Source: Escherichia coli (GTDB lineage Bacteria; Pseudomonadota; Gammaproteobacteria; Enterobacterales; Enterobacteriaceae). From it: DNA of 64,000 nt. Made by a program: the position numbers. Shown piece after piece: positions 36,301-39,300 of this stretch. Each line of letters begins with the position of its first letter. Position 1 is the stretch's first letter. The stretch is from the NCBI RefSeq assembly GCF_030013595.1, contig NZ_CP122768.1, one strand, 5' to 3'.

Positions 36301-39300
36301 CCATCATTAAGCCGCTGTACGGCCTCAACATAATCAATGGTTGTATTGCCAATTTTTATGCCATGTGGCGTAACTTCTGGTCGGAACTCTGAATGATTCA
36401 TAATGTTTGCTCCTTTGCTGGTGGAATAATCGTGTAGCCAGCTCTTTTTGCCATCCACAGAAATGTATCCATGCAGCCAACGAATTCATTATCCAACAGA
36501 TGTTTTGAGTAAATTACTTCACCATTTTCAATGGTTAGCAACACTCTTACTTTTTTATGTGTTATGTTCTGTTGTTTTTCTTTCATTTATTTATCTCCCA
36601 TATGCTTTGCGCAAATACAGGTTGGCTATATGAAGATAAGAATCTCCATGTTGTGCAATGAGGCAGGCAGTTTTATACGATGCCTTATTTTTCAGGAAAG
36701 TCATAACTGAGTTCCCTCTATGAATAAAGGTTGTAACAATCCCCGGCGATAAAACCGTAATAAACGTTCAGAGCATGTTTGTTGTTATTGCGCTAGTTCT
36801 TTTTCGGCAGCAGCTTTTGCATATTCACATGCAAAATTCAGAATTTCGCTGCCGAGTGTTTTTATTTCGTTATTACTGGACATATGTAATACCTGTGTTG
36901 CATGCAATAAATGATAAACATTTACCGCAAATGAGTCCGGTTCCAGACAAATGCCTTCATAATCATCTTGCTGTGGGGTTGTTTCTGTCATTGCTCCTGA
37001 AGTGCATGCGAGCCTGTTTTTGACAATTCTCTTTCCTCTAATCACTATATCGGCTACATCTATTGCCTTTACAACCTCCGGGAGAAATTCCTGGTTTGTA
37101 TAATCAAAGTTATCAACATGGAGAACAGTTATGTTTTCGAACTTTTTCATGCGCAAGTATCTCCAGCTGTTGGTTTACCGGTTAACAGCCACATCGGGTC
37201 GCAACCAAGAACATTTGCCAGTGGGATAAGCATACTGATAGTTGGTTCATACTCTCCGCTTTCCCACTGGATGATGATTTCTTCATCGAGATCGAGCAGC
37301 CTGGCGAGTTCGGCGGTTGTTAAGCCGCAGGCTTCGCGTTGGGTGCGAATCCGATTCTGTGAATTAATGGCTAAATTTTGTTTGCATGAACGCGACGCGG
37401 TGAGGCTATATTTTTGAGTTACAGCCAGGATGGAGCTGGCAAGTTCAATTAACTCAGGGTTATTGCTGCTATACAGTAGTGCTCCAGCCCCTACTAAGAG
37501 TTGAATATTCTCAAGAGCATCGTGTTGATTTGTTGGTAACCCCATATACGATGACATTTTCCTCATCCTCTATAATTGTTTTGGTGAGTTCGATACTTAT
37601 GTCATGATAATAGGTTTACCTATTCATGTTGTCAATCGGTTTGTCGATTTTTTCAAAAAAAACCCACTCGTGGAGTGGGCGGGGATGTTAAATAATTATC
37701 GCTTATGCGAAACGGTGTAGCGTCATAGGCCAACTTACGATTACTTTTCCGTCAATGTGAAGTTGCTCGAAGTCATCTTGTTCGATAGCCCAATCTTTGT
37801 AAGCTGGATTGTCTGAGATCACTGTTAGGGTGTCTTTGATTTTTTGAAGCCTTTTGATGTGCGATGTTCCAGAGTATGTAAAAGCGTATATACCATCGCC
37901 ATTAAATGAGCGAACTGATACGTCAACAAACACCAAGTCCTCAGGGTTTATTGTGCCTTTCATGCTGTCGCCGTGGGCGTTTATTGCTTTGATTGCTGAT
38001 GCTGGTCTGCCGCCAAAAACTCTTGATGCGTATCCTGGTTCTATCGCTATAGATCTGACAATGTCTGGAAAATCAGAGTTATAACTACCAGGTCCGCAAC
38101 TGTATCTGATGTCTAAAACATCCACGACATACGAATCAGTAATCCTGTCTTCTGAAATGTTACGTATTTGGTGTGAGTCTGCAGAGGTCTCGATTTCCAT
38201 TGGACCGACACCAGATGCGAGCCATTCCGGGTTAACGCCCAAAACTTTTGCTATTTCAACTGTTTTCCTGGAACCGTTGGCTTTGTTAAGTAATTGATTG
38301 ACGCTTGACTGGGCCATACCTACTTCTTTGGCCAGCCTGCCTTGCGTAAATTTGGCGTTGCGCATAGCTAAATCAAGTCGTTCTGAAAATGTCATTGTGA
38401 TCTTCCTCTCCTCTCTATGTTGGGCAGTTTATCGGCTTTCCGATGAAACTTCTAGGTTTAACGTTGAATATCGATTTACCTATTGATAATATGTCGTCAA
38501 TAGGAGATGCGATTATGAAACATAAAGCTATAGAAAAAGCCATTGAGATTCTTGGGAGCCAACAAGCCTTAGCCAAGCGATGCGGAAAGGCTCAATCAAC
38601 AGTCTGTGATTGGCTTAACTGCAAGAACAAGATTTCACCCGAATTTGTGCCGTTATTGGTTGCAGCTGTCGACGGAAAGATCCAAGCGTATGAATTTCGT
38701 CCAGATCTACCAGAGCTTTTCCCACACCCAAGCTTAGCGCACACGGGGGAGGAGTGAGGTGCATGCTTGTTGATCGTAGAGAAATGAAAAGCGCCAGTGC
38801 GCGACGCTTTTCAAGAAATTATGCGGCAACCGTTTTTTCGATTAATGCCTGTTTTCTTGTGGGCTGTGAATACCGGATTTTTTCAGCGTCTCAATATGTC
38901 GGCGCAGATCGGAGATCAAAGTCTCAGTCATTTCGGGAGTAAGCGCGAAGAACTGAGTTTCTTGTGCTGAATCCAGTGGTTGCATAGGGGAAGTCAGGTA
39001 CTGGAATTTTAATGCTAGCGCACCATAACCGGGCAATGGTCCAGCCTGCCAGGCTGTAATAGGAAAAACAGGAATATCGTTTTTTTGTGACATGTCGAAC
39101 CTCCTTTGGTTCTTTTGTTTATAGGGATCAAAAAGATAACTGAAGGAAGGTTCGGCACCAACAAGTACGAATGTGCGGAATCTTAAAAGAATTTATCCGT
39201 AAGGAGATGGCAGTGAACACCGCAATTTTTAACGGCAAAGCATCCATGACCAGCGTTGAAATCGCAGAGCTGGTGGGCAGCCGCCATGACAAAGTGAAAC

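What the first reader, a model, noticed from the sequence alone, without database searches (positions are those of the whole stretch)
38842..39093. Opposite-strand small gene inside the early-right region
Between cro and the Rha-like gene, an 83-aa ORF with ordinary composition runs against the early-right transcript. Counter-oriented genes in this region can be lysogen-expressed regulators, or their antisense transcription can modulate early expression.
Basis: inference. Interest (0 to 1): 0.35.

Follow-up and report, generated by a model that had tools for sequence, protein, structure and literature searches.

The report
Prophage-borne BssS-family accessory gene
The small opposite-strand ORF is a real, conserved gene for a BssS-family ("biofilm regulator") protein, carried as a swappable cargo cassette between cro and rha of an E. 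coli prophage; it is ordinary in kind, although relatives sit next to the repressor switch of quite distant phages.

Summary
Window 38842..39093 (-) is an intact 83-aa ORF with an AGGAGG ribosome-binding site and its own intrinsic terminator. It lies between a YdaS-type cro and a Rha-family gene.

It belongs to the Pfam BssS family (56 bits, cutoff 27), and RefSeq already annotates it as "bssS family protein". It is not an orthologue of chromosomal bssS: it shares 24% identity and scores 23.7 bits against an equivalog cutoff of 125.

The gene sits in a three-state cargo slot. Near-identical prophages have this gene, an unrelated 97-aa gene (phrog_4753) behind the same 113-bp upstream module, or nothing, with cro and rha overlapping.

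Homologues of 55-98% identity all keep 83 codons, show dN/dS of about 0.09-0.17, and keep the terminator. Only 12 of 5,426 complete E. coli genomes carry it.

Relatives of 30-40% identity in Pseudomonas, "Synechococcus" and metagenomic phages also lie just downstream of cro, counter-oriented.

Best reading: an independently transcribed accessory gene ("moron") whose small, probably dimeric protein acts on the host. Expression in the lysogen and the function itself are inferred, not shown. A purely antisense role is unlikely.

Novelty: new member of a known kind. Interest is modest.

The parts
38842..39093 (-). CDS of an 83-aa BssS-family protein (the stop codon is 38842-38844)
   Evidence: ORF. 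Pfam PF13991 scores 56.1 bits against a cutoff of 27. PHROG 10846 scores 172 bits. RefSeq names it 'bssS family protein'. dN/dS is 0.09-0.17.
38775..38813 (-). Intrinsic terminator of the bssS-like gene: a 12-bp hairpin at 38785-38813 followed by the tail UUUCUCUACG
   Evidence: Called as a terminator. On the minus strand it folds at -15.3 kcal/mol with z -3.2; on the plus strand z is only -1.0. An equivalent hairpin, AAAGCGCC-N8-10-GGCGCTTTT, follows the stop codon in homologues of 55-98% identity.
39100..39105 (-). Shine-Dalgarno AGGAGG, six nt upstream of the ATG
   Evidence: Read directly from the sequence.
39094..39206 (.). 113-bp slot module between the cargo ATG and the rha start. It carries the cargo's ribosome-binding site and leader, weak candidate leftward promoters, and the new ribosome-binding site of rha
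   Evidence: The module is shared up to the start codon with prophages that carry a different cargo gene, and it is present in 31 genomes. It is absent from empty-slot prophages. Promoter candidates reach only 7-8 of 12 matches.
39093..39157 (-). Inverted repeat (arms 39093-39107 and 39143-39157). In a long leader RNA it would pair the SD and start codon with the anti-SD sequence CCGAACCUUCCUU
   Evidence: Repeat found. The 113-nt minus-strand fold is -24.6 kcal/mol, z -2.3. Whether the 5' arm is transcribed depends on which promoter is used, and that is unknown.
38753..39212 (.). The whole inserted cassette relative to an empty-slot prophage (about 460 bp replacing about 26 bp at the cro/rha junction)
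   Evidence: Alignment A2. The flanking Cro is 95% and Rha 99% identical in the empty-slot strain.

Best explanation
This is a prophage accessory gene of the 'moron' or cargo type. Shown: a cassette of about 460 bp sits between cro and rha. It comprises the terminator, the 83-codon gene, a ribosome-binding site with leader, and a replacement ribosome-binding site for rha. In sister phages cro and rha are directly (translationally) coupled at this junction. The gene encodes a BssS-family small protein that is kept intact by purifying selection. Inferred: the gene is transcribed leftward from a weak or regulated promoter in the 113-bp slot module, independently of pR and convergent with it, and its transcript stops at its own terminator just short of cro. 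It would therefore be made mainly when early-right transcription is silent, that is, in the lysogen. Also inferred: like its distant chromosomal relative BssS, the protein acts in trans on host physiology (stress, biofilm, signal handling). The fold is three beta strands plus one helix, with no DNA-binding motif, so it more likely acts as a small dimeric protein-binding factor than as a transcription factor. The phage does not need it for development.
For: Identity: Pfam BssS at 56 bits against a cutoff of 27; PHROG 10846; RefSeq annotation; a gap-free full-length alignment with K-12 BssS and with phage homologues, in which P11, W15 and the C-terminal His are invariant.

Selection: 18 homologous genes all have 83 codons, and dN/dS against the window gene is 0.09-0.17 (median over all pairs 0.14).

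Cassette and slot: in two different immunity types the slot holds this gene (window, L009), an unrelated 97-aa gene, phrog_4753 (L006, L007, L010), or nothing (L008, L011, L012). The flanking Cro and Rha are 95% and 99% identical in an empty-slot strain. The upstream module is identical up to the ATG for both cargoes.

Own terminator: it is stronger on the gene's own strand and travels with the gene in diverged homologues.

Rarity: 12 of 5,426 complete E. coli genomes carry it, all from pigs or cattle. Only 2 of about 100,000 species-representative genomes carry a close relative.

Recurrent placement beside the cI/cro switch, counter-oriented: Pseudomonas phage PseuP_224, Synechococcus phage Ssp-JY37, the metagenomic loci L054, L056 and L058, Salmonella phage F1055, and 40 IMG/VR contigs.

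Against: No transcription data were available. No good sigma-70 promoter is present upstream: the scan found none, and my own scan found only 7-8 of 12 matches. Base composition does not differ from the neighbouring genes. Identity to characterised BssS is only 24%, and BLASTP finds no pairwise alignment, so transferring its function is weak. The molecular mechanism of BssS is itself unknown. The conserved position right after cro in distant phages hints at a switch-linked role, which a generic 'host-directed moron' reading does not explain. The structural matches are not statistically strong (Foldseek E 0.15), and the dimer interface could not be inspected.
Confidence: 0.6

Rival explanations
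1. The unit works mainly in cis, or within the phage switch. Leftward transcription from the slot collides with pR read-through. Together with the hairpin placed where lambdoid phages have tR1, this would damp or delay expression of rha, the antirepressor module and the replication genes, stabilising lysogeny. Alternatively, the protein itself could modulate the lysis-lysogeny decision.
For: The same placement, immediately or a few genes downstream of a YdaS-type cro, counter-oriented and co-directional with cI, recurs in phages whose BssS-like proteins are only 30-40% identical. The terminator lies about 30 nt after the cro stop. Any pR transcript that reaches rha is necessarily antisense to the whole gene. 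A second terminator-like hairpin lies on the plus strand at 39097-39112, just before rha.
Against: The protein sequence is under strong purifying selection, so transcription alone is not the point. Closely related phages function with the slot empty or holding an unrelated gene. In Salmonella phage F1055 and most IMG/VR loci the gene sits on the other side of cI, opposed to the early-left operon instead. The hairpin is markedly weaker on the plus strand (z -1.0). There is no Rfam antisense-RNA match at the locus.
Confidence: 0.17
2. It is a defence, superinfection-exclusion or counter-defence cargo, like the many such genes that occupy variable slots next to prophage immunity regions.
For: The slot behaves like a hot spot, with alternative unrelated cargoes behind a shared promoter/RBS module and an empty state. 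The gene is rare and patchily distributed. Both cargo families have unknown function in PHROGs.
Against: PADLOC-DB has no match for either cargo or for K-12 BssS. The family includes a conserved chromosomal gene of Enterobacteriaceae whose published phenotypes concern biofilm and signalling, not phage (citing Domka et al. 2006). My searches found no phage-resistance literature on bssS.
Confidence: 0.15
3. It is a chance ORF or an annotation artefact on the antisense strand of read-through sequence.
For: Many chance ORFs of similar length occur in this region.
Against: The Pfam and PHROG matches, the strong SD, the dedicated terminator, the conserved 83-codon length and the low dN/dS across 55-98% identical homologues.
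Confidence: 0.01

Closest known systems
[quoted passage not shown]
   Same: Same Pfam family (PF13991). Same size (83 vs 84 aa). The two align end to end without gaps, sharing P11, W15 and the C-terminal His. K-12 BssS also hits PHROG 10846, the window protein's phage family, though weakly.
   Different: Identity is only 24%, and BLASTP finds no pairwise alignment. It fails the NCBIfam equivalog model (23.7 vs 125 bits). It sits in a prophage cargo slot rather than the conserved solA-bssS-dinI chromosomal locus. It is present in 0.2% of E. coli genomes rather than being a core gene. No phenotype is known for it.
Lambdoid-phage 'morons' and lysogenic-conversion cargo (for example lambda bor/lom and rexAB, or the HK97/HK022 morons; recalled from established phage literature, not read here)
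   Same: An extra gene present or absent between otherwise near-identical phages. It is counter-oriented or autonomous with respect to the surrounding operon, is followed by its own intrinsic terminator, and is dispensable for phage growth.
   Different: No recognisable strong promoter, and no deviation in base composition. The slot keeps a constant upstream module while the coding part is exchanged exactly at the start codon.
Counter-oriented RNAs of lambdoid early-right regions (lambda OOP, P22 sar; recalled)
   Same: A leftward transcription unit embedded in the rightward early operon close to cro, convergent with pR.
   Different: Those are short non-coding antisense RNAs that overlap a specific target gene. 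This unit encodes a selected protein, would terminate before reaching cro, and has no Rfam match.
COMM domain (COMMD proteins and bacterial COMMD-like proteins; PMC13392464)
   Same: The predicted three-strand-plus-C-terminal-helix fold gives COMM domains as the best structural matches in two programs. COMM domains are obligate dimers, and a tandem-dimer model of this protein is confident.

Membership tests
BssS protein family (Pfam PF13991) | Profile match above the curated gathering score | tested here: met
   56.1 bits against a cutoff of 27, covering residues 10-79 and profile positions 1-70 of 72.
BssS protein family (Pfam PF13991) | Single-domain protein of about 80-85 aa, colinear with E. 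coli BssS over its whole length | tested here: met
   Alignment A1 has no internal gaps between the two; P11, W15 and H83 are invariant. 281 clusters (at 50% identity) match at E<=1e-3; nearly all of the 150 listed are about 80-85 aa.
BssS orthologue (NCBIfam NF008958, equivalog) | Score at or above the curated cutoff of 125 bits | tested here: not met
   23.7 bits.
BssS orthologue (NCBIfam NF008958, equivalog) | Conserved chromosomal neighbourhood solA-bssS-dinI | tested here: not met
   In K-12, bssS lies between solA and dinI. This gene lies between cro and rha of a prophage.
BssS orthologue (NCBIfam NF008958, equivalog) | Biofilm, indole or AI-2 phenotype | not testable with these tools
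   Needs deletion and complementation experiments.
Phage moron / accessory cargo gene | Presence/absence polymorphism at one position between otherwise closely related phages | tested here: met
   The slot is empty in L008, L011 and L012, holds a different cargo in L006, L007 and L010, and holds the same cargo in a second immunity type in L009. Flanking proteins are 95-99% identical.
Phage moron / accessory cargo gene | Own transcription terminator | tested here: met
   Hairpin plus U-tract at 38775-38813, with z -3.2 on the gene's strand. It is conserved downstream of homologues.
Phage moron / accessory cargo gene | Own promoter | tested here: inconclusive
   The tool found no site with at least 9 of 12 matches. 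The best candidates are TTCACT-16-TAAATT (8/12) and TTGGTG-17-TATCTT (7/12).
Phage moron / accessory cargo gene | Expression from the repressed prophage | not testable with these tools
   Needs strand-specific RNA-seq or reporter fusions.
Cis-antisense regulatory RNA (OOP/sar type) | Non-coding transcript whose function lies in base-pairing with an early mRNA | tested here: not met
   The unit encodes a protein under purifying selection. The predicted 3' end lies short of the cro coding region. There is no Rfam match at 38700-39210.
COMM domain | Beta-beta-beta-alpha fold superposable on solved COMM domains | tested here: inconclusive
COMM domain | Sequence-profile membership | tested here: not met
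   BssS is the only Pfam hit.
Known anti-phage defence proteins (PADLOC-DB 2.0) | Match to any defence-system profile | tested here: not met
   No family at E<=0.1.

The most novel reading that the evidence does not exclude
The BssS family may be, at root, a family of temperate-phage genes tied to the repressor switch. Most of its sequence diversity lies outside the enterobacterial bssS clade. Wherever context could be read, these genes sit counter-oriented beside cI/cro, often directly after a YdaS-type cro, in hosts from Pseudomonas to E. coli. On this reading the protein, a COMM-like dimer with an invariant C-terminal His, has a lysogeny-linked job, and the chromosomal 'biofilm regulator' bssS (next to dinI) is a domesticated copy.
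Probability: 0.25. Interest if true: 0.55.

Novelty: new member of a known kind. Interest (0 to 1): 0.33.

Why it matters
As a single gene it matters little: it is a rare, already annotated accessory gene of pig and cattle E. coli prophages. The value lies in its context. It gives a poorly understood protein family a second, phage-borne setting. That family includes BssS, widely used as a biofilm marker gene although its molecular mechanism is unknown. The slot is a natural three-state experiment (this gene, another gene, or nothing) in otherwise near-identical prophages. It could be used to test what BssS-type proteins do and whether prophages use them to alter host behaviour in the gut. The recurrent placement next to cro in unrelated phages is a concrete hypothesis that can be tested cheaply.

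Tried and rejected
- **Pairwise BLASTP with K-12 BssS** gave no alignment. Homology rests on profiles and on the multiple alignment.
- **PDB by sequence** gave nothing meaningful; the 7rdr designed-repeat hit is a sum of sub-threshold repeats.
- **BFVD viral fold search** gave no hit at E<=0.001. The AFDB50 library was unavailable.
- **PADLOC** had no hit.
- **Literature:** the top 'BssS + prophage' hit I opened concerns the nickase Nb.BssSI. Of the listed papers, those I opened say nothing about a phage-borne BssS, and no other listed title or abstract suggests one. Domka et al. 2006 is not held, so BssS phenotypes are cited second-hand from PMC3646849.
The narrow scan gave only two loci, both in Franconibacter species (one deposited as Enterobacter pulveris), so the phage-versus-chromosome share of the whole family could not be counted.
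- **Context look-ups:** several representative proteins were on contigs too short to be informative (P0027, P0029, P0057, P0026). One (P0033) had a chromosomal-looking context with DUF2534 and BTP neighbours, so not every non-enterobacterial-type member is phage-borne.
- **Upstream GC dyad as a cI operator:** I tested this for the dyad found upstream of other homologues. It is not repeated in the cI-cro regions.
- **Upstream GC dyad as a structured RNA:** only two pairs show a change on both sides, one of them in a single sequence, and there is no Rfam match. It remains unexplained.
- **Deviant base composition** as a sign of foreign origin is not present.

Full report
**1. Observation**

Window 38842..39093 (-) is an 83-aa ORF starting with ATG. 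AGGAGG lies at 39100-39105, six nt upstream of the start.

- an S24/LexA-type repressor at 37703..38395 (-);
- a Cro-like gene at 38515..38757 (+) (Pfam YdaS_toxin, 55 bits);
- a Phage_pRha gene at 39207..39920 (+);
- an Ash/Rha-type gene at 40034..40696;
- an HTH_36 replication-initiator-like gene at 40914..41825.

The 1401 bp around the ORF are 100% identical to E. coli ETEC1734. There PGAP annotates the same coordinates as "bssS family protein", WP_063102809.1. GC content (0.456) is like that of the neighbours. An ORF of this length is not significant by itself, because one search lists many chance ORFs of similar size. The evidence below is what makes it a gene.

**2. Identity**

The protein matches Pfam BssS (PF13991) at 56.1 bits against a gathering score of 27. 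It matches PHROG 10846 (unknown function) at 172 bits.

It scores only 23.7 bits against NCBI's BssS equivalog model, whose cutoff is 125. BLASTP finds no pairwise alignment with K-12 BssS. In a multiple alignment, however, the two are colinear end to end at 24% identity, and P11, W15 and the C-terminal His are invariant.

It is therefore a distant paralogue within the BssS family, not an orthologue of chromosomal bssS. The chromosomal gene lies between solA and dinI in K-12.

**3. A cargo slot**

Related E. coli prophages show three states of the cro|rha junction, in two different immunity types:
- **This gene:** the window, ETEC strains and cq9 (L009).
- **A different cargo:** an unrelated counter-oriented 97-aa gene, phrog_4753, with no Pfam or PADLOC family (L006, L007, L010).
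- **Empty:** the cro stop overlaps the rha start (L008, L011, L012).

In an empty-slot strain, Cro is 95% and Rha 99% identical to those of the window. Relative to that strain, about 460 bp (window ~38753-39212) replace about 26 bp.

The 113 bp between the cargo start codon and rha are the same for both cargoes, right up to the ATG. This module includes the SD and a new ribosome-binding site for rha, and it occurs in 31 complete genomes. The gene plus its terminator occurs in only 12 of 5,426 complete E. coli genomes. In all 12 it is a single chromosomal copy, and all are strains from pigs or cattle.

**4. Signals**

- **Terminator.** A 12-bp hairpin (38785-38813) with a U-rich tail follows the stop codon on the minus strand. 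It folds at -15.3 kcal/mol (z -3.2) on that strand. On the plus strand it is no better than shuffled sequence (z -1.0), because two G.U pairs become mismatches. Homologues of 55-98% identity carry an equivalent hairpin, AAAGCGCC-N8-10-GGCGCTTTT, about 30 nt after their stop codons. The terminator therefore belongs to the gene and moves with it.
- **Promoter.** No good sigma-70 promoter was found. The best candidates are TTCACT-16-TAAATT, which overlaps the rha start and ends 96 nt before the ATG, and TTGGTG-17-TATCTT, which ends 39 nt before the ATG.
- **Leader.** An inverted repeat (39093-39107 / 39143-39157) would sequester the SD and start codon if the longer leader is made. This is unverified.

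**5. Conservation**

Close relatives occur in E. coli, Salmonella, Klebsiella, Atlantibacter, Kluyvera and Tatumella, and a 52%-identical one in Franconibacter. They also occur in 40 IMG/VR viral contigs.

All intact copies have 83 codons. dN/dS against the window gene is 0.09-0.17 wherever dS is measurable, and the median over all pairs is 0.14. The reverse-strand ORFs inside the gene are not conserved in length.

**6. Wider family and synteny**

An exhaustive profile search found 281 clusters (at 50% identity) at E<=1e-3. Nearly all of the 150 listed are about 80-85 aa. Only 18 of these 150 are at least 50% identical to K-12 BssS; the rest are 35% or less. Many end in P-[KR]-H.

Where context was readable, the genes lie beside the repressor switch and oppose the adjacent early operon:
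- **Pseudomonas phage PseuP_224 (30% identity):** cI, then an unannotated YdaS-like cro, then the BssS-like gene counter-oriented, then replication genes.
- **L054 (32-33% identity):** cI | cro | BssS-like, counter-oriented.
- **L056 (32-33% identity):** cI | YdaS-type cro (92.7 bits) | a further co-oriented gene | BssS-like | cII-type CP76 gene.
- **L058:** the gene is three genes after a cro-like gene next to an S24 repressor.
- **Synechococcus phage Ssp-JY37 (about 40% identity):** the gene is one gene after cro.
- **Salmonella phage F1055 and most IMG/VR loci:** the gene lies on the other side of cI, convergent with cI and the early-left genes.
- **P0033:** this representative has a chromosomal-looking context.

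**7. Structure**

AlphaFold2 gives mean pLDDT 83.7. The model has a beta-hairpin (residues 12-32), a short strand (49-51), a helix (53-73) and a disordered tail that ends in the invariant His.

A linker-joined tandem dimer, modelled with a paired alignment, gives pTM 0.71 and domain pLDDT of 90-96. That suggests a homodimer, but I could not inspect the interface. The protein has no HTH or other DNA-binding signature.

**8. Mechanism**

The following are shown: the gene is real and under selection; it forms a mobile cassette with its own terminator; the slot is dispensable and exchangeable; and the gene is counter-oriented to pR.

The following are inferred: it is transcribed leftward from the slot module, mainly when pR is repressed, and its protein acts in trans on the host as a small dimeric binding factor. 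Chromosomal BssS is known only through phenotypes: biofilm, indole and AI-2 handling, and gut colonisation resistance (PMC3646849, citing Domka et al. 2006).

I put 0.6 on this reading. The rivals are:
- a cis or switch-linked role (0.17), supported by the recurrent position after cro but weakened by protein-level selection, by empty and alternative slots, and by the alternative placement left of cI;
- defence or counter-defence cargo (0.15), which has hot-spot behaviour but no PADLOC match;
- a chance ORF (0.01).

**9. Comparison and novelty**

By Pfam the gene is a member of the BssS family, but it fails the orthologue test. It meets two of the three testable moron criteria (presence/absence polymorphism and own terminator). 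The promoter criterion is inconclusive.

It is not an OOP/sar-type antisense RNA. The COMM-domain resemblance is a structural lead only.

I found no paper that describes phage-borne BssS homologues. The COMMD-origins paper does not mention BssS.

Verdict: a new member of a known kind, of modest interest. The more novel reading is given in the novel-case field.

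Noticed in passing
window 40078-40279 (+): Rfam finds an isrK Hfq-binding RNA (40091-40167, 63 bits against a gathering score of 50) and a C4 antisense RNA (40192-40279, 84 bits against 45). 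There is also a weak c4-a1b1 target match. All lie inside the ORF annotated 'ash family protein' (40034..40696), whose C-terminal half is Rha/antirepressor-like. This looks like a P1/P7 ImmI-type, or Gifsy-1 IsrK-type, antirepressor control module two genes to the right of the finding.
   Followed up: partly
L006 2032-2325 (-); also L007 and L010: An unrelated 97-aa gene (phrog_4753; no significant Pfam match, no PADLOC match) occupies the same cro|rha slot behind the same 113-bp upstream module. The exchange point is exactly at the start codon. Among the E. coli genomes listed with the upstream module, it appears more often than the bssS-like cargo.
   Followed up: partly
L018, L022-L026, L029-L032, L044, L045, L050, about 70 nt upstream of the bssS-like start (for example L023 5933-5969): One copy per locus of GCCKG-N13-CMGGC-N-GTGnTATCYT. 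It consists of two interleaved GC-rich dyads followed by an extended -10-like TGnTATCYT; K-12 bssS has TGGTATACT upstream. It is not repeated in the cI-cro regions and has no Rfam match. Covariation is weak: one pair changes UA<->GC in 4 of 9 sequences, and another changes in a single sequence. The window cassette lacks it. Its function is unexplained.
   Followed up: partly
window about 41900-43213 (ORFs 41964..42854 and 42851..43177, minus strand): A 1313-bp insertion relative to ETEC1734, lying just after the replication-initiator-like gene. It encodes two overlapping ORFs of 108 and 296 aa and looks like an IS3-family element. Its identity as IS629/IS1203 is from memory only and was not tested.
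   Followed up: partly
window 39097-39112 (+): A terminator-like hairpin on the plus strand (GAACC-TCCTTT-GGTTC followed by TTTTGTTTAT). It sits directly after the antisense passage through the cargo gene and before the rha ribosome-binding site. It might limit pR read-through into rha.
   Followed up: no
window 38479-38504: A perfect 8-bp inverted repeat, CCTATTGA-N10-TCAATAGG, in the cI-cro intergenic region. It abuts the cro ribosome-binding site and is a candidate operator.
   Followed up: no
L005 5387-5617 (-) (Pseudomonas phage PseuP_224, OP795451.1): An unannotated 76-aa YdaS-like Cro ORF (Pfam 29.9 bits against a cutoff of 30) lies between the annotated cI and the BssS-like gene. The deposited annotation leaves this region empty.
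   Followed up: yes
L004 (Synechococcus phage Ssp-JY37) and OM868080.1 (Yong-L1-251): Phages recorded as infecting Synechococcus carry a BssS-family gene about 40% identical to the E. coli one, next to a Cro-like HTH gene. This is an unexpected host range for a family named after an enterobacterial gene.
   Followed up: no
alignments A1 and A3 (protein residue 83; window codon 38845-38847): The very last residue, His, is invariant across the family, and is usually preceded by P-[KR]. The preceding 10 residues are predicted to be disordered. This looks like a C-terminal functional motif of unknown role.
   Followed up: no
L001 6152-7323 (equivalent to window 32451-33622): In ETEC1734 the prophage integrase is annotated as frameshifted, and a P4-like satellite (Psu, integrase) lies immediately to the left of the prophage. 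The window is collinear with ETEC1734 only from about 32300 rightwards, so the window's left part differs.
   Followed up: partly
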